Shown in pieces: positions 38,422-44,614 of a DNA stretch of 64,000 nucleotides; position 1 is the first letter of the stretch; the number at the start of each line of letters is the position of its first letter. The notes below the pieces were generated by a model. The model was not told the DNA's origin, did no database searches, and saw only the letters and a program-made list of their open reading frames with translations. This DNA comes from Fimicolochytrium jonesii (Eukaryota), in the NCBI RefSeq assembly GCF_025526975.1, contig NW_026515675.1, forward strand, positions 744,001-808,000, read 5' to 3'. A program made the position numbers and the translations under genes.

Positions 38422-41400
38422 ATGCATACATTCATAACTGTTCTGTTCCTCGTCCTCGCTTCGATAATCGGCTCTGTCTTTGCCCAACAGCGATGGAACG
38501 AGACGGGAAATTTGGTAGGCTATGGGGCAAGCGGGCAGCCACTCTATCGGTATGAAGAAAGGAACCCATGGTCGTGTTCCCTCGTTATTCTCTACTTACA
38601 TTCATTCGTACCCTCCCAGGGCCACGCAATTGCCGGATATGAGCCAGTACAGCCGGCCCGTGACGCTTGCTCGTACGGAAACCGGCCAATTGCAGTTTGC
38701 GTACTACATCGAAAACAACACCTATTTGCGCTTTATGACGATGATGACGGGGTTTAAGCTTGGACATGTATGCGAACGGATGTACTTTCAGACTTGATGG
38801 CTTGTATGTGCGCTAAGCAAAACATTTCGCTCTCATTGCAGGCATTCATGGGTCTCGGCTTCGGCGACTCCATGCTCATAGCCGATTTCGTAATCACGCA
38901 CCTCGGCCCCGACGGTTCCACCGTCGAATCCCACGAACACATCCACCGCATGCAATACGCGCCCCCCTGGGCCTCTGAAAACCCCGAGCCGTGGGTGATC
39001 GAGCCCATCAACGGCGGCTTGGTGAACGGCACCTTCTTCAGCGAGATCCGACGCCCGTTTGATCCCCCGCAGCGTAGTCGACCGCATGTTGCGCTGGCGA
39101 GGGGAGATGTTGGCGATGGACAGCATGTTATTTGGGCGTATAATGTGGATTCGCCGAAGAATGATTGGGGTGGGAATTTTGAGTATCATAATCCCAACCC
39201 AGGTATGTCGACCTTCATCGAGTGTGCGCCTCGACCAACACAACTCACGCTTTGTTTGCCTCCCTCGCACCAGGAAGCAAGACCGGCCTCCCCAGCGAAA
39301 TCGGCCAAACCCACGGCAAGATGCTCGTCAACTTCGACCGCCGCAGCATTATCTATCAAGCGGTGCCCAACCCCGCCGGCCGCCTCGCCCACGGCATCAT
39401 GATGTTCACCGCCGCGCTCGTCATCTTCCCCGCCGGCGCCTTCTACTCCCGCTACATGCGCTTCATCCCCAGATGGATCTGGGTCCACATCGCGCTGCAG
39501 AGCATCGGCTACATCACCCTTCTCGCCGGTCTGGTCACGATGGTCCTCACCATCCGCACGTTCCGAGTCCACCCGCATTCCATCCTAGGTCTCGTGCTCA
39601 TTGGGTTATTGACCGCGCAGGTGTTTTTTGGATTCAGCAACCGCTCCCTCCTCCGCACCGACCTCCCGCGCACCCCGCGCCGCACAATGGTCAAATGGTT
39701 CCACCGCCTGCTCGGCACAGCCCTGATCCTCGGCGCCGTCGTGCAGGTCTACCTCGGCCTGCGGATCCTGTATCCACTGGAGGAGCCGCGCGGGGACGCC
39801 TTCTGGATCGTGTATTTTGTCGTCATTGGGTTCTGGGTGGCCGTGTTTGTGTGCACGCAGATTGGACGCAGGGCGTTCTTTGTGATTAAGGACAGGCCGT
39901 ATGCGGCCGTGCCGACCGAGGAGGGCGGGAAGTTTAGGGAGCCGCCGGGGATTGTGGAGTTGAATAGACGACAGGGGGGAAGGTTGTATCCGAATTTGGA
40001 AGCTTATGATTGGAAGGCGTTGGATAATGAGATTCGTCATGGGTAAGGATTACAGAAGTGTTTCTTTCGTTTGCTCCTTGTTGATGTTCTAAACTGTGTG
40101 ATGTCGGTAGTCGCCTCTTGGTCGTTGCAAACTCACGCTACATCTACGACACGTCAGAGTGGATCACTAGTCACCCCGGAGGCCAGGTGAGTGAGGGGGG
40201 GTTTCGGCGTCGTTCTCGATTAGACGGATATACTAACAACCGCTTTCAGTCCATCTTGTTGGCCGTTGCGGGAACAGACATCACAAGCGACTACTTCCAT
40301 GAAGGTAAATCTGACATCCCACGCTCTTCGAAACACGGCGCTAACCGTTTGTATGCTCTTCCTCTCCATCGCTCCTTTCGCAGGCGGATACGATGCGGTG
40401 GAGTAAGTATTGTCCAAGCCTCGGTTTACATCTCATGGCTTTCAATAACCAGTGCTCTTCACTCCTCCGTCCCTCACAGGTTCACACCGGCCCCCCCAGC
40501 CCCCAAACAAAGCTCCCGCCGCAAGAAAGCGCCCGTGCCCAACATGACCGCCACGCCCGACGCGCGCCTTTCGATTTCCGACATCCAGGGCGGGGAGGTG
40601 GAGGCGTACACCATGACGGCGCCCGCGGTGTTGACGCAGGCGGATTGGACAAAGATCACCCGGGCGAGGAGGCCGCATGTTCACACCAAGGTGTGTCCGA
40701 TTCCTCAAGATCTCTCCCGACGCGCAAACTCACCGCTCCCATCCATCCATCCCAGCTGGCCATCATGCGTCTCGCCCACCTCCTAGTCGGCGAACTCACC
40801 CCCGCCGCGTCCTCTCCGGATGATCCCGGCTCCCTCTACCACTTCGACCCGTACGAATACCGCCGCTACGCCTTGACTTCAAAGGAGCTCCTAACCGACC
40901 CCACCCAAAACTGCGCGCACCAGATCTACCGGCTCCGCTTCTGCCTCCTGTACCCCTTCGAGCCGCGCACCGCCGCCCCCGACGAGATCCTGCCGGGCCA
41001 GTGCATCGAGCTCCAAGTCCGCGTCAACGGCGTGCCGATGGCGCGATACTACTCCCCCGTCACCGGCACGCTCTCCGCCCTCGAGGTGTGGGTTAAGGCG
41101 TACCCGACCCAGGGGGTGAGCAGCTTTGTGTGCCGGGAACGCCCCGGGGACAGGCAGTTCAAGATCAGGGGTCCGTTTGGGCCGCCGTTGCTGGATCTGA
41201 TCAGTCCGAGCTTGAAGCCGGAGAGTTGGATTTGGGGGAGTATATTGTATGTCGCGGGCGGGACGGGGATCACGCCGTTTTTGCAGCTGTGCCAGTATCT
41301 GTTTCTGCCGGTCGGTGTGCCGTTGAAGGTGAGGGTCTGGACCTTCTTACGGAATGTTGGACGCGTTCACTCCACGCGCGTGGACGTACTGTAAAAACAC

Positions 41401-42291
41401 TCACGAACGAAACGACCTTTTCGCAATTTGGCAGGCCTCGTCCGCATACACCCCAACAATGCCCGACGAACTCACCATACGCGCCAACGACATCCTCGTA
41501 AGTCCCCCAGAATCCCTCTAGAATCCGGTCCCCCTCCCTGCACCCACCTCCCTAAACGGCGCCTCCCCGCCCCCAGGTCGTAACCCACCACTACCTCGAC
41601 GGCTGGGCGCACGGCACGAACCTCGACACGAACGAAGACGGCGTGTTCCCGCTCCCGATCACGGTCCCGCGGCACGGGCCGCACGTCAAGCTGGTCCTGC
41701 TGAACTGCGCGTCGTTTGTCGGGGATCTGGTCGGCGGGGAGATCATCGACGCCGTGCTGTTGAGTTACCCGGCCCAGTTGGAGGTGCATCATTGTGTCGC
41801 CGGCGGCGTGCCCGACGGTCGCGGGCGGTTCAGGTACGTGGGGGCGACTCCCTCCCCGTCCCTATCTTTTTTTCTCGTTTTCTGAGCCCTGTTGGTGTCG
41901 AGTGGGGGTTCGAATCCACTGATACTTTCGACCCCTTTTGTTTGCGTTGGGTAGCGGCTTCGCGTACACCGGCCACCTGACGGACCGCATTCTCCGCGAA
42001 GCCGTTCGCGGCGCCGCCAGCACGTCCAGCCCCGGGATGCGCTCCCGGGACGACCATTCGCACGTACAGGGGAAATGGAGTATTGTGTCGGGGCCGGCGA
42101 GTTTCAATGAGTTTGTTTATGGGAAGGTAAGGCTGGAAGCAATTTTTTGGGGGGGGGGATGTGTGAGGGGGTAAGGGGGCGGTTAATGATGGGTGAATTT
42201 TTTTGGTTAGTTGGTGCAGATGTTTGGATATAGGGATAAGGATATCGCGGTGTTGAGTAACTCGGTTGCTGATTGGAGGCAGGAGGGGTGA
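38422..42291 (+). CDS. Multi-domain membrane oxidoreductase: signal peptide - DOMON - cytochrome b561 - cytochrome b5 - FAD/NAD(P)H reductase with inserted SH3
   Basis: More than 10 exons. FMGLGFGDSMLIADFVI and FEYH (DOMON); AHGIMM, WVHIALQ, HPHSILG, WFHRLLG (b561); YDTSEWITSHPGG..AGTDIT (b5); RYYSP, RGPFG, AGGTGITPFLQ, SGPASF (FNR family); YTPTMPDELTIRANDIL|VVTHHYLDGWAHG..GVFP (SH3). Confidence 0.85.
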
Positions 42292-42712
42292 ATCTTCAAG
42301 CTCGGGCCTGTTATGTTTTGTTGCGTCTTCCTATTTTCCTTTCGAGAGGGGGCTTTGTTATGATGGGGGTGGATCGGCGCGGTTATCGTTTCGCTGGTGA
42401 ATGCTTTCGGCCTATTTTTTTCTCTCCTCCCTTTGTATCCATCGGCGTAGTTGAGCTTGTAGCCCAGAGCCTCGTTTACAGTAGCTTAGCGCACGACGAG
42501 CCCGTAGTGATCCTGTTCTCATCCTGCTATACAAATCATTCTTTCTTGAAGCCAATGAAATAAAACGATGGTTCTATTCCGAAGTCTCCGAATGCATGCG
42601 AAACAAAAAGAAAAATGGGCGTCAGGTCTAGCTAGCTACGGCGTCATGTATGTACAAATCCAACTCGAGTTTGTTCATCCCCCATCCCTCTGTGAATGTA
42701 TGCCCATCCCCC

Positions 42713-44614
42713 CTAATTCCTCCCAATCATCTTATCCATCACCCTGAACAACAACCCACTCATCCGTTCCGGCTCCGTCTGATACACACTCATCAAAAGC
42801 CCCATGCTCACACCCCCCATCAAGATCTCGAACCCCGGGATGCGCGTCATCACCCCGCGTTGATGTAACAGCTTCCACGCGGACGTGAACGCCTTCGGCG
42901 CGACGTACATGGCGAGTTCCGAGCGGCGCTGTTTGTGTTCGAGGAAGATGGAGGACGAGCAGCACATGCCGACAAAGTAGTACCAGTATCGGTGGTCCCT
43001 GCGGAGCACGTTTGGGATGGGCAGGGAGGAGAGGGCGAGGTTGCGTTGCGCGCAGATCATGACCTGGAAGATGCTGATGAACGCCGCGAGGAAGACGGCG
43101 CTCCGGGCGGTGGCGACCAGGTTTCGTTTTGTAACGTTCACGGGGTCGTGGAGGAGGACTTTTGGTTTGAAGAGGAGGAGCGGGACGAAGTTGAGGGCGA
43201 GGTAGACGGGGCCGATGTCGCGGAAGATGGTTGGCCAGAGTTGGGCGTTGTAGGTTAAGCAGGAGGCGGAGGAGGGGTGGAGGACGGAGCAGGGGACGAG
43301 GGGGAGCTGGCCGTTGTTCGCGTTGAGGTATCCGAGGGCGGAGGAGACGAGCTGTGGTGTGAAGGATTTGGGGCGGTGTTCGATGAGGGATGTCATGCGT
43401 TTCGCGGTATCCGGGAGAGTGATGCCCTTTGAGTAGGCGGCGACGTGGGTGCGGTTGAAATCGAGGATGGGGTGGGAGACCTGGCAGATGTTGACCATCC
43501 ACCTGTAGTATTCGGGCGGGATGGTGGTGGGCTGGATGATAAGGGCGTAGAGGATGCTGGCGCAGCTGAGCATGAAGAGGGCCGAGTCTCCGTGCGGGAA
43601 GTGGACGAGTTCCCGGGCTTTGAGGGCGTTGTAGCCGGCCTGCATGGAGCGGACGAAAAATTGTTGGGCGATGGCTATGCGGGATTCTTTTTCTTCAAAG
43701 AGCAGGGCGACGCTGCCTGCGATTCCGCCGGCGATCATCCCGTGCAGTTTGGAGGAGCGGTCGGAGGTGTGGGCTAGGAGGTTGTTGATGAGTTTCCAGA
43801 GGAAGGAGAAGGAGCCGATCATGGCTGCGAAGCGGGTTGATGTTGGGGCGTAGAATGCGGAAAGAGCGGATTTGAGCGTCGTCTTGCCCCGGAGGAAGAA
43901 GATGGTTTTGATCAGCGATGCGATCCCGCCTCGGAGGGCGTAACCTATGTAGGAGGAGAGATAATTATCATTAACAATCAGCCATCAACAACCATCAACA
44001 ACCATCAACAAATCGACCATCAACCCATCAACCCATCAACCCATCAGCCATCGTCGGATCATCAACCATCTTCAACCATCGACGATTATTAGGGGAATCT
44101 TGCGCGAGGGGAGTATTGCGCCTTTTCAATGTAGCTCGCGCTGCTCGCGCTTCGCTGACACTCGCGTAGGCGTTTGCTCGGCGCAGACACCCCCACTTCG
44201 CTCGTTGCAGACAGCCACCCATCGCTCTCTCCTCTCGCGGTTCGCATGGCTCACGGCTACACCCCCTTTTGCTCGCGACAGAAAACCACCCCTCGCTTCG
44301 CTCACGGCTCGCCACGGTCGGTCGCTTACGGCCCACATACCTAGTAAAAACGAGCGCAAACCACCCGATGTCGCATGGACGATAATCTGACGAACCGAAT
44401 TCCATTTTGGAGGAACAACGGGTTTGGGTATCGTATGGTGGTGTTTGATGTTGGTAGATGCCGGCAGTGGAGTTGGAGCTGGAGCTGGAGAGATGGGACT
44501 TTTGGAAGGGTGAGGTGAAAAAGAACTTCCCGAGTCTCTTCGGATCTCAGCCTTTGCAGCGTCCGTGACGGTGAGTTCCGTCGTTGTTGGAGCAGACAGT
44601 TCGTCGGATGCCAT
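42713..44614 (-). CDS. TMEM135-like (peroxisomal membrane) protein
   Basis: Exon 44341-44614 ends GGLRSFLLG; intron 43945-44340; then YALRGG..RFAAMIGSF, IAGGIAGS, HGDSALFMLSCASILYA, PCSVLHP, RSAVFLAAF, LEHKQRRSELAMYVAPKA. Confidence 0.85.
43966..44080. repeat. Degenerate CCATCAA(CAA) tandem repeats inside the TMEM135 intron
   Basis: ccatcaacaa accatcaacaa accatcaacaa..caacccatcaacccatcaacccatc. Confidence 0.8.

What the first reader, a model, noticed from the sequence alone, without database searches (positions are those of the whole stretch)
41310..41670. SH3 domain inserted inside the NAD(P)H-binding lobe of the reductase
Seen: right after AGGTGITPFLQLCQYLFLPVGVPLK, exons 41435-41497 and 41577 onward encode ASSAYTPTMPDELTIRANDIL-VVTHHYLDGWAHGTNLDTNEDGVFPLPITVP, matching the SH3 pattern (Y..DEL....D....DGW..G....G.FP); the Rossmann strand VKLVLLNC then resumes. 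The ORF track does not show this. Known: NADPH oxidases are regulated by separate SH3-bearing subunits (p47/p67phox, fungal Bem1). Inference: a built-in docking module may localise or switch electron flux, e.g. at actin or polarity sites.
Basis: partly seen in the sequence, partly recalled or inferred. Interest (0 to 1): 0.75.

Follow-up and report, generated by a model that had tools for sequence, protein, structure and literature searches.

The report
SH3 domain inside chytrid membrane reductase
A chytrid fungus gene encodes a membrane electron-carrying enzyme whose NAD(P)H-binding domain has a genuine SH3 protein-docking domain inserted into one of its loops, a layout kept across zoosporic fungi that likely lets partner proteins position or control the enzyme.

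Summary
Exons 41435-41497 and 41577-41833 join in frame to exon 40756-41328 across GT..AG introns. The product is identical to the deposited 970-aa protein of Fimicolochytrium jonesii (P0001).

Residues 781-832 are a true SH3 domain. Pfam SH3_1 scores 32.5 bits against a cut-off of 22.9. AlphaFold2 pLDDT is 95-96 over these residues. Every listed Foldseek hit of the excised segment is an SH3 domain or an SH3-containing protein.

The SH3 sits between Pfam NAD_binding_1 positions about 19 and 24, after strand 1, the GxGxxP motif and helix 1 of the nucleotide-binding domain.

The host enzyme is not a NADPH oxidase. It is signal peptide, DOMON, 5-TM cytochrome b561, cytochrome b5 and a b5-reductase in one chain.

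The insert is at the same site in 130 of 132 reductase modules examined; the other 2 carry a partial SH3. Every named member is from Chytridiomycota or Blastocladiomycota. The SH3 is as conserved as the FAD domain.

The docking or regulatory role is inferred. No partner, no expression data and no paper on the family were found. This scan had already noted the same architecture in two other genomes.

The parts
38422..42291 (+). Whole gene: 13 exons, 970 codons plus stop. It encodes signal peptide, DOMON, 5-TM cytochrome b561, cytochrome b5, an FAD domain and an NAD(P)H domain with an SH3 insert.
   Evidence: Exon map obtained by threading P0001 onto the window; all introns are GT..AG. 100% identity to F. 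jonesii EV422DRAFT_566639. Pfam domains.
39375..39878 (+). Cytochrome b561 membrane core (aa 247-414, five helices).
   Evidence: Pfam Cytochrom_B561 33.7 bits at 252-375. Five hydrophobic segments and helices 247-273, 280-305, 313-340, 347-378 and 387-414. His 252, 284, 314 and 356 are conserved in 53/55, 41/55, 53/54 and 53/53 sequences.
39999..40690 (+). Cytochrome b5-like domain (aa about 455-596, exons 4-8) with a variable insert of about 60 residues.
   Evidence: Pfam Cyt-b5 34.2 bits at 472-508, covering only profile positions 14-50 of 74. H490 of HPGG is present in 56/56 sequences and H587 in 59/59.
40780..41223 (+). FAD-binding barrel of the b5-reductase module (aa 598-745).
   Evidence: Pfam FAD_binding_6 22.4 bits against GA 21.1. 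R686-x-Y688-[ST]-P is conserved in 80, 74 and 78 of 81 rows. Foldseek matches b5 reductases.
41224..41328 (+). First part of the NAD(P)H-binding domain: strand 1, G758-x-G760-x-x-P763 and helix 1 (aa 746-780). It ends at the exon 9 donor.
   Evidence: GxGxxP is conserved in 80, 79 and 76 of 81 rows. E750-757 and H758-771 in the model. NAD_binding_1 profile positions 1-19 match here in relatives.
41329..41434 (+). Intron 9 (106 nt, phase 0), lying exactly at the N-terminal boundary of the SH3.
   Evidence: GTGAGG...GGCAG. Twelve unspliced ORF-fragment relatives lose homology at this same point.
41435..41497 (+). Exon 10, 63 nt, phase 0/0. It encodes SH3 residues 781-801 (first strand and RT loop, including Y785, D791 and E792).
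41498..41576 (+). Intron 10 (79 nt, phase 0), inside the SH3 coding region.
   Evidence: GTAAGT...CCCCAG.
41577..41669 (+). First part of exon 11. It encodes SH3 residues 802-832 (D809-G810-W811, G823, F825-P826).
41670..42291 (+). Rest of the NAD(P)H-binding domain: remainder of exon 11 to 41833, then exons 12 (41955-42126) and 13 (42211-42291). It includes strand 2 (VKLVLLNC) and the S932-G-P motif.
   Evidence: NAD_binding_1 profile positions 24-106 match this part in relatives P0007, P0057 and P0066.

Best explanation
Exons 41435-41497 and 41577-41669 encode a genuine SH3 domain that sits in the loop between the first helix and the second strand of the NAD(P)H-binding domain of a 970-residue DOMON / cytochrome b561 / cytochrome b5 / b5-reductase membrane protein. 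It likely serves as a cytosolic docking site for a proline-rich partner that positions or regulates the enzyme.

Shown here:
- the splicing-consistent reading frame;
- the SH3 identity, by profile and by predicted fold;
- the insertion site;
- conservation of the insert at one site throughout Chytridiomycota and Blastocladiomycota;
- conservation of the redox motifs in every domain.

Inferred:
- Topology. A signal peptide plus five membrane helices would put the DOMON outside and the b5, reductase and SH3 parts in the cytosol.
- Electron path. NAD(P)H to FAD, to the b5 haem, to the two b561 haems, to the DOMON haem, to an extracellular acceptor. This would be a CYBDOM-type exporter that carries its own NAD(P)H-driven donor module instead of using ascorbate.
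- Position of the insert. The helix1-strand2 loop of a Rossmann-type domain lies on the edge opposite the nucleotide/FAD cleft, so the insert can protrude without blocking catalysis.
- The SH3 binds a ligand in trans.
For: SH3 identity:
- Pfam SH3_1 32.5 bits against GA 22.9.
- SH3 hits among PDB sequences.
- pLDDT 95-96 over 781-830.
- Foldseek hits of the excised segment are all SH3.

Insertion site: NAD_binding_1 is split at profile positions about 19 and 24. The SH3 begins about 23-25 residues after GxGxxP wherever both are seen.

Conservation across the family:
- At least one Pfam SH3 model reaches its gathering score in 46 of 60 family proteins scanned. 56 of 60 have an SH3 hit at E<=0.01.
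- 130 of 132 reductase modules with both flanks carry a family-SH3 HMM hit between them. This HMM was built from the family itself. The other 2 hold a partial SH3.
- One relative encodes flank-SH3-flank in a single uninterrupted frame (L001).

Constraint on the SH3:
- Mean pairwise identity is 0.43 for the SH3, 0.48 for the FAD domain and 0.29-0.32 for the rest of the NAD domain, over 59 rows.
- Of 59 rows: G810, W811 and G823 in 59, E792 in 58, P826 in 55, D791 in 54 and Y785 in 52.
- By the alignment to the SH3RF2 SH3, Y785, W811 and P826 fall on canonical peptide-contact positions (the names of these positions are recalled).

Enzyme intact:
- RxY[ST]P, GxGxxP and CGP motifs are conserved.
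- The four b561 His, the DOMON Met103/His208 pair and b5 His490/His587 are conserved.
- The fold matches b5 reductases with TM on target 0.76-0.80.

Against a built-in ligand: no cytosolic PxxP is universally conserved. The best non-structural site, the 520s, has it in 22 of 59 sequences. This favours a ligand in trans.

CYBDOM precedent for trans-membrane electron export: PMC10784544, abstract and passages read.
Against: - No partner, localisation or expression evidence of any kind.
- Two of the canonical SH3 peptide-contact tyrosines are not kept. The first Tyr of the 'ALYDY' motif is Ser in this protein. The 3-10-helix Tyr is Ile829 here and V, C, K or I in the family. Classical PxxP binding is therefore not assured.
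- In Blastocladiomycota the insert is kept but scores poorly as SH3. There is no Pfam hit in P0057, P0066 or P0069, and family-HMM scores for the named Blastocladiomycota members P0141, P0144, P0158, P0164, P0172, P0175 and P0180 are 14-42 bits against 50-87 for most reductase members. A purely structural role could explain its retention there.
Whether the SH3 groove is solvent-exposed in the full-length model is unknown.
- The Cys of the CGP motif is Ser932 in this protein; 57 of 62 relatives have Cys.
Confidence: 0.5

Rival explanations
1. The SH3 works inside the molecule. It would dock on the protein's own b5 domain or on the proline-containing insert that follows it (F520-x-P522-x-x-x-x-P527). 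That would hold the b5 haem domain in position on the reductase or gate FAD-to-haem electron transfer. The role would resemble that of the CS domain between b5 and b5R in Ncb5or, or the SH3-linker clamp of Src kinases.
For: - A semi-conserved motif follows the b5 core: F520 in 49 of 57 sequences, P522 in 49 of 57, P527 in 42 of 57.
- Residues 521-540 are coil yet have pLDDT 86-87 in the full-length model, so they are probably packed on something.
- The SH3 is retained in Blastocladiomycota even where its SH3 signature is weak.
- The CS-b5R structure of Ncb5or is among the fold matches (6mv1).
Against: - A canonical PxxP at that site is present in only 22 of 59 sequences.
- Class I or class II motifs between b5 and the FAD domain are sporadic.
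- No contact information could be obtained.
Confidence: 0.27
2. The SH3 is a tolerated, mainly structural decoration of a surface loop, with no ligand. It would be inherited from one ancient exon insertion and kept because removing it destabilises the domain.
For: - The site is a surface loop that varies in length in ordinary b5 reductases (inference from the alignments).
- Two canonical contact tyrosines are lost.
- The Blastocladiomycota copies are degenerate.
Against: - The SH3 is more conserved than the NAD domain around it: 0.43 against 0.29-0.32.
- The invariant or near-invariant residues include the exposed ligand-face Trp811, Tyr785, Pro826 and the acidic RT-loop pair D791/E792, not only core residues.
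Confidence: 0.12
3. The insert is an artefact of the gene model. The real mRNA would skip these exons and encode an ordinary reductase.
For: - Exon 10 is a 63-nt phase 0/0 exon, so skipping it keeps the frame.
- Two relatives' gene models (P0118, P0150) lack part of the SH3.
- No RNA data were available for this organism.
Against: - Most of the SH3 (aa 802-832) is on the same exon as strand 2 of the NAD domain, so it cannot be removed by exon skipping.
- The insert is present in 130 of 132 modules from many genera.
- It lies in an uninterrupted frame on L001.
- Without the insert the flanks would be joined by only a few residues.
Confidence: 0.03

Closest known systems
CYBDOM proteins (DOMON + cytochrome b561), e.g. 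Arabidopsis HYP1/CRR and animal FRRS1/SDR2
   Same: N-terminal signal peptide, extracellular DOMON with a conserved Met/His pair, then a b561 core with four conserved His. HYP1 was shown to carry electrons across the plasma membrane to ferric and cupric acceptors through three b-haems (PMC10784544, abstract and passages read; PMC10784552, abstract seen in a search listing).
   Different: Known CYBDOMs take electrons from cytosolic ascorbate. This protein has a cytochrome b5 and an FAD/NAD(P)H reductase fused to the cytosolic end, plus the SH3. The donor would therefore be NAD(P)H (inferred).
NADH-cytochrome b5 reductase (CYB5R/Cbr1) and the b5-CS-b5R fusion Ncb5or (CYB5R4)
   Same: The FAD barrel and NAD domain fold match Cbr1, Physarum b5R and human CYB5R3 with TM on target 0.72-0.80; Ncb5or CS-b5R (6mv1) is also among the matches, with TM on target 0.54. 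RxY[ST], GxGxxP and CGP motifs are present. Like Ncb5or, b5 and b5R are in one chain.
   Different: None of the solved reductases listed has a domain in the helix1-strand2 loop. The alignments need about 90-100 extra columns: 346-372 columns against 243-272 target residues. The protein is membrane-embedded through b561. Its b5 domain is interrupted by an insert of about 60 residues.
NADPH oxidase complexes regulated through SH3 adaptor subunits (p47phox, p67phox, NOXO1/NOXA1; fungal Bem1 with NoxR)
   Same: Works like: a cytosolic NAD(P)H/FAD module would feed a haem chain across a membrane, with SH3-mediated protein contacts. The NOXA1 SH3 is among the structural matches of the insert (7cfz_B, rank 8).
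   Different: Not homologous. No Ferric_reduct membrane domain was found, and there are no significant FAD_binding_8 or NAD_binding_6 hits in this protein. The SH3 is in cis, inside the dehydrogenase, not on a separate subunit. The roles of the phox and Bem1 subunits are recalled, not checked here.
Dual oxidases (DUOX): extracellular peroxidase domain fused to a NOX
   Same: Five relatives scanned carry an N-terminal animal-haem-peroxidase domain ahead of DOMON-b561-b5-reductase(SH3): P0056, P0066, P0067, P0068 and P0069. A sixth relative, P0144, is named 'heme peroxidase' by its source. The layout resembles DUOX.
   Different: The window's protein has no peroxidase domain. The electron-transfer parts are of different families from DUOX.

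Membership tests
SH3 domain (Pfam clan SH3; PF00018) | Profile match at or above the curated cut-off | tested here: met
   SH3_1 32.5 bits against 22.9 at residues 781-826. SH3_9 27.9 (below 30) and SH3_2 19.6 (below 21.8).
SH3 domain (Pfam clan SH3; PF00018) | Five-stranded SH3 beta-barrel fold | tested here: met
   Predicted only. pLDDT is 95-96 in the full-length model. The excised segment matches solved SH3 domains at rmsd about 1 A and TM on target up to 0.91.
SH3 domain (Pfam clan SH3; PF00018) | Conserved peptide-binding face (two Tyr of ALYDY, Trp of the n-Src/distal region, Pro and Tyr of the 3-10 helix, acidic RT loop); motif names recalled | tested here: inconclusive
   Kept: Y785 (52/59), D791/E792 (54 and 58 of 59), W811 (59/59), P826 (55/59). 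Not kept: the first ALYDY Tyr and the 3-10-helix Tyr (I829; V, C, K or I in the family).
SH3 domain (Pfam clan SH3; PF00018) | Binds proline-rich peptides | not testable with these tools
FNR-like / cytochrome b5 reductase module (PF00970 + PF00175) | FAD_binding_6 profile and RxY[ST] FAD motif | tested here: met
   22.4 bits against 21.1. R686 in 80/81 rows and Y688 in 74/81.
FNR-like / cytochrome b5 reductase module (PF00970 + PF00175) | NAD_binding_1 profile, GxGxxP and CGP motifs | tested here: inconclusive
   No NAD_binding_1 hit at E<=0.01 in P0001 itself. The profile is split by the insert and is seen in relatives as positions 1-19 and 24-106. GxGxxP is present. CGP is SGP here.
FNR-like / cytochrome b5 reductase module (PF00970 + PF00175) | Two-domain b5R fold | tested here: met
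   Foldseek: 7rom E 1.8e-12, TM on target 0.76; 2eix 0.80; human CYB5R3 0.72-0.74. Predicted model.
CYBDOM (DOMON + cytochrome b561) | Cytochrom_B561 profile with four haem-ligand His | tested here: met
   33.7 bits against 23. H252, H284, H314 and H356 are conserved.
CYBDOM (DOMON + cytochrome b561) | DOMON domain N-terminal to b561 | tested here: inconclusive
   No DOMON hit at E<=0.01 in P0001. Relatives do hit it, some above the cut-off of 32.7: P0042 61.2, P0015 37.8, P0078 37.8. Residues 31-241 are an all-beta domain with pLDDT mostly above 85. M103 (50/52) and H208 (56/56) are conserved.
NADPH oxidase / ferric reductase (PF01794 + PF08022 + PF08030) | Ferric_reduct six-helix haem domain with FAD_binding_8 and NAD_binding_6 | tested here: not met
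   None of the three families is reported for P0001 at E<=0.01. Only sub-threshold NAD_binding_6 fragments appear in a few relatives.

The most novel reading that the evidence does not exclude
Zoosporic fungi have built, from parts unrelated to NOX, a one-chain NAD(P)H-powered trans-membrane electron exporter (b5 reductase, b5, b561, DOMON). In some relatives it carries a DUOX-like peroxidase head. Its activity or placement is controlled through an SH3 embedded in the dehydrogenase itself. That would be convergent with the SH3-adaptor control of NADPH oxidases, with the receiver domain in cis.
Probability: 0.25. Interest if true: 0.8.

Novelty: new variant of a known kind. Interest (0 to 1): 0.6.

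Why it matters
All the parts are known families, but the combination is not described in any paper my searches reached.

If the inferred chain works, it is a second, independent solution to the task done by NOX/FRE enzymes, exporting cytosolic NAD(P)H electrons. It would show that b561 proteins need not depend on ascorbate.

An SH3 inserted in a Rossmann-type nucleotide-binding domain has been kept since before the split of Chytridiomycota and Blastocladiomycota, and it is as conserved as the flavin domain. That points to a protein contact that matters for this enzyme. It also gives a concrete handle (W811, Y785, the isolated SH3) for finding the enzyme's partner, location and regulation in genetically tractable chytrids.

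Tried and rejected
- RNA support for the two introns: the look-up of sequencing runs listed no RNA holder for window 40700-42300. None was listed, so splice junctions could not be checked with reads.
- Intramolecular docking of the SH3 (772-840) on the b5 insert (508-560): complex prediction returned 'no answer' (score 0.02, mark 0.34; the alignments were not used). This is no evidence either way.
- The search for related loci with the 59-sequence alignment failed because no stretch was conserved enough. A single-protein query gave one metagenome locus.
- The window's own genome is not held, so paralogues could not be counted from DNA. A second F. jonesii paralogue (P0028) is known only from the protein search.
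- A search for a conserved class I or class II SH3 ligand between b5 and the FAD domain found only sporadic motifs. A family-wide PxxP scan found no universal site; the 730s site is the GPxGP hinge of the reductase.
- Literature: five full-text searches found no paper on this architecture or on the Spizellomyces orthologues. Subscription-only papers are not covered.
- I first suspected that the b5 domain lacks its second haem ligand, since H511 is kept in only 29 of 56 sequences. I dropped that reading: an invariant RRxHxH[TS] motif (H587 in 59/59) follows a variable insert and fits the b5 'HS' position. This rests on sequence only and was not verified in 3D.
- NADH versus NADPH preference was not resolved.
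Full report
**1. Observation**

Reading the window and joining 40756-41328, 41435-41497 and 41577-41833 gives one open frame with AG/GT at every boundary.

A protein search with the translation of exon 40756-41328 returned a 100%-identical 970-aa entry, P0001, named 'uncharacterized protein EV422DRAFT_566639 [Fimicolochytrium jonesii]'. F. jonesii is a chytrid of the order Spizellomycetales.

Threading P0001 on the window gives 13 exons, 38422-42291, all GT..AG:
Both are phase 0.
- Exon 10 is 63 nt.
- The rest of the SH3 shares exon 11 with strand 2 of the nucleotide-binding domain.

The window holds only this one copy of the gene.

**2. Is it an SH3?**

Yes, on four lines of evidence:
- Pfam gives SH3_1 at residues 781-826, 32.5 bits against a cut-off of 22.9 (E 6.6e-8). 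SH3_9 and SH3_2 score just under their cut-offs.
- phmmer against PDB sequences finds the SH3 domains of SH3RF2 (2cuc, E 2.4e-4), vinexin and SORBS1 over residues 776-836. On either side it finds b5 reductases over 620-780.
- A full-length AlphaFold2 model built on a 59-sequence alignment has mean pLDDT 86.3 and pTM 0.65. pLDDT is 95-96 over 781-830, with strands typical of an SH3.
- The segment 772-842 modelled alone has pLDDT 85.6. Every listed Foldseek PDB hit is an SH3 domain or an SH3-containing protein (betaPIX, JIP1/2, RasGAP, Lyn, Src, NOXA1, FUT8 and others). rmsd is about 1 A over 55-60 columns, and 229 matches have E<=0.001.

**3. Where it sits**

In relatives the Pfam NAD_binding_1 profile is split. 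Positions 1-19 (strand 1, GxGxxP, start of helix 1) lie directly before the SH3, and positions 24-106 lie after it (P0003, P0007 and P0057; many; P0066).

In the model the order is strand 750-757, helix 758-771, SH3 778-830, strand 838-846. The insert therefore replaces the short helix1-strand2 loop of an FNR-type domain.

By the general topology of such domains, that loop lies on the sheet edge away from the nucleotide and flavin. This is an inference; I had no coordinates.

Foldseek of the full model matches b5 reductases: yeast Cbr1 7rom (E 1.8e-12, TM on target 0.76), Physarum 2eix (0.80), and human, pig and rat CYB5R3 (0.71-0.74). The alignments run to 346-372 columns against targets of 243-272 residues, consistent with a large insertion. 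No listed solved reductase has a domain at that site.

**4. What the host protein is**

It is not a NADPH oxidase. Pfam finds Cytochrom_B561 (252-375), Cyt-b5 (472-508), FAD_binding_6 (665-731) and the SH3. It finds no Ferric_reduct, FAD_binding_8 or NAD_binding_6.

- N-terminus: a hydrophobic signal-like segment at 1-23, then an all-beta domain at 31-241. Relatives score this domain as DOMON or CDH-cytochrome. It has a conserved Met103/His208 pair, in 50/52 and 56/56 sequences.
- Membrane core: five membrane helices follow. They carry four conserved His: H252, H284, H314 and H356. A signal peptide plus five helices would place the DOMON outside and everything from residue about 415 onward in the cytosol (inference).
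- b5 domain: it keeps HPGG (H490 in 56/56). The usual second His position is not conserved (H511 in 29/56). Instead a variable insert of about 60 residues is followed by an invariant RRxHxH[TS] motif (R582 in 59/59, H587 in 59/59), which I read as the displaced second ligand (sequence-based inference).
- Reductase motifs: R686-x-Y688-[ST]-P, G758-x-G760-x-x-P763 and C/S932-G-P are conserved across 81 and 62 rows. This protein has Ser where 57 of 62 have Cys.

The most economical reading is a one-chain electron path: NAD(P)H, FAD, b5 haem, two b561 haems, DOMON haem, extracellular acceptor. Plant CYBDOM proteins such as HYP1 were shown experimentally to do the trans-membrane part with ascorbate as the cytosolic donor (PMC10784544, abstract and passages read). 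Here the fused b5 and b5R would replace ascorbate (inferred).

**5. Conservation of the insert**

*Relatives found.* The first search gave 80 relatives. Every hit with an organism name is a zoosporic fungus. Phylum was checked by look-up only for Fimicolochytrium and Sorochytrium and is otherwise recalled.

*Alignment of the reductase part.* In 81 rows the SH3 lies at one and the same site in every sequence that runs through it.
- 59 rows span the SH3 completely.
- Twelve shorter rows lose homology exactly at the 'PL-x-V/K |' boundary where intron 9 lies here. That is what read-through into a shared intron would look like (inference).

*Pfam on 60 family proteins.* At least one SH3 model reaches its gathering score in 46. 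An SH3 hit at E<=0.01 is found in 56. There is no hit in P0029 (Gorgonomyces), P0057 (Catenaria), or P0066 and P0069 (Sorochytrium).

*Exhaustive HMMER search.* I used a 403-aa reductase+SH3 relative (P0014) against 1.84 billion representatives. It found 1239 proteins at E<=0.001, 260 at E<=1e-10 and 140 at E<=1e-30.

*Flank test.* Over all 199 proteins then held, I used HMMs built from the family's own flanks and SH3, so the test is partly circular. 132 reductase modules have both flanks, and 130 have the SH3 between them. The two exceptions, P0118 and P0150, contain the first part of the SH3 and look like models missing an exon.

*Names.* Of 30 further representatives looked up, 29 carry names. 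All are Chytridiomycota or Blastocladiomycota (Blastocladiella, Allomyces, Catenaria). Presence at one site in both phyla implies a single insertion before they split (parsimony).

*Uninterrupted reading frame.* On a metagenome contig (L001) a relative 40-49% identical to P0001 encodes the GxGxxP helix, the SH3 and strand 2 in one uninterrupted frame. The contig has one TAA further upstream where the database protein has Glu. So the SH3-bearing reading does not depend on this organism's splice sites.

**6. Constraint on the SH3**

Mean pairwise identity over 59 full rows:

| Region | Mean pairwise identity |
|---|---|
| FAD domain | 0.48 |
| SH3 | 0.43 |
| Strand1-helix1 part | 0.40 |
| Rest of NAD domain | 0.29-0.32 |

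Conserved SH3 residues, out of 59 rows:

| Residue(s) | Rows |
|---|---|
| G810, W811, G823 | 59 |
| E792 | 58 |
| P832 | 56 |
| D809, P826 | 55 |
| D791 | 54 |
| Y785, N816 | 52 |

In the alignment to the SH3RF2 SH3, Y785 matches the second Tyr of the ALYDY motif, W811 the conserved Trp and P826 the conserved Pro of the 3-10 helix. The first ALYDY Tyr and the 3-10-helix Tyr (I829) are not kept. Motif names are recalled. The ligand face is thus largely under selection but not fully canonical.

**7. Mechanism**

I commit to the SH3 as a cytosolic docking site for a ligand in trans, used to position or regulate the enzyme (confidence about 0.5).

The main rival is an intramolecular contact with the b5 domain or its proline-containing insert.
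- For it: F520-x-P522-x-x-x-x-P527 is semi-conserved, and residues 521-540 are coil yet confidently placed (pLDDT 86-87).
- Against it: a canonical PxxP occurs there in only 22 of 59 sequences, and class I or II motifs are sporadic.

A purely structural decoration and a gene-model artefact are less likely, for the reasons given above.

**8. Comparison with known systems**

The closest families are:
- CYBDOM proteins, for the membrane part;
- cytochrome b5 reductase and Ncb5or, for the cytosolic part;
- canonical SH3 domains, for the insert.

The protein works like a NOX/FRE enzyme but fails the NOX membership test.

Five relatives scanned carry an N-terminal animal haem peroxidase: P0056 Borealophlyctis, P0068 Rhizophlyctis, and P0066, P0067 and P0069 Sorochytrium. 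P0144 of Blastocladiella is named 'heme peroxidase' by its source. This DUOX-like layout supports the idea that the family delivers electrons or reduced oxygen species outside the cell (inference).

**9. Novelty**

Five full-text searches found no paper describing this architecture, an SH3 inside an FNR-type domain, or the Spizellomyces orthologues. The deposited proteins are 'hypothetical' or carry automatic names.

This scan had already noted the same family and the same SH3 insertion in two other genomes (e1-9923526 and e1-9846246). My results on this window agree with them.

I rate it a new variant of known kinds, of moderate to high interest. The structural facts are solid. The function of the SH3 and of the whole chain is inferred.

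Noticed in passing
relatives P0056, P0066, P0067, P0068, P0069 and P0144: Some family members carry an N-terminal animal haem peroxidase domain (An_peroxidase, 284-366 bits) ahead of DOMON-b561-b5-reductase. The layout resembles DUOX but is built from unrelated electron-transfer parts.
   Followed up: partly
P0081, P0086, P0095, P0100, P0101, P0163, P0168, P0181: Chytridiales encode proteins with 3-10 tandem SH3 domains and no reductase, auto-named 'Sorbin and SH3 domain-containing protein 2'. Their repeats score 39-68 bits on the HMM of the reductase-inserted SH3. That is higher than the SH3 inserts of Blastocladiomycota reductases. The two may share a recent origin; the direction is unknown.
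   Followed up: partly
window 40250-40690 (aa about 495-596): The cytochrome b5 domain appears to be split by a variable insert of about 60 residues. The usual second His is not conserved (H511 in 29/56). An invariant RRxHxH[TS] motif (H587 in 59/59) follows the insert. Pfam Cyt-b5 matches only profile positions 14-50 of 74.
   Followed up: partly
window 41329 (exon 9 / intron 9 boundary): Twelve relatives, most from metagenome or Logan contigs without an organism name, lose homology exactly at the SH3's N-terminal boundary. This suggests a widely shared phase-0 intron at the insertion point, as expected for insertion by exon shuffling. Introns inside the SH3 seem to differ between lineages.
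   Followed up: no
window 42088-42096 region (aa 932-934): The CGP motif of b5 reductases is SGP in this protein. 57 of 62 relatives have Cys.
   Followed up: no
window 42713-43984, minus strand: The convergent neighbour is a 423-aa open frame with only a weak Tim17/Tim22/Tim23/Pmp24-family match (21.7 bits, below the 32.7 cut-off).
   Followed up: no
P0002, P0018, P0026, P0109, P0112: Several deposited relatives are fused to unrelated domains (a second tandem reductase copy, ThuA, NIF phosphatase, DFP, serine carboxypeptidase). These are probably merged neighbouring genes in automatic annotations.
   Followed up: no
L001:2258-2260: The metagenome contig has an in-frame TAA where the database protein P0010 has Glu686, so it is a near-identical variant or a sequencing error. 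The contig is otherwise one 974-codon frame without introns.
   Followed up: yes
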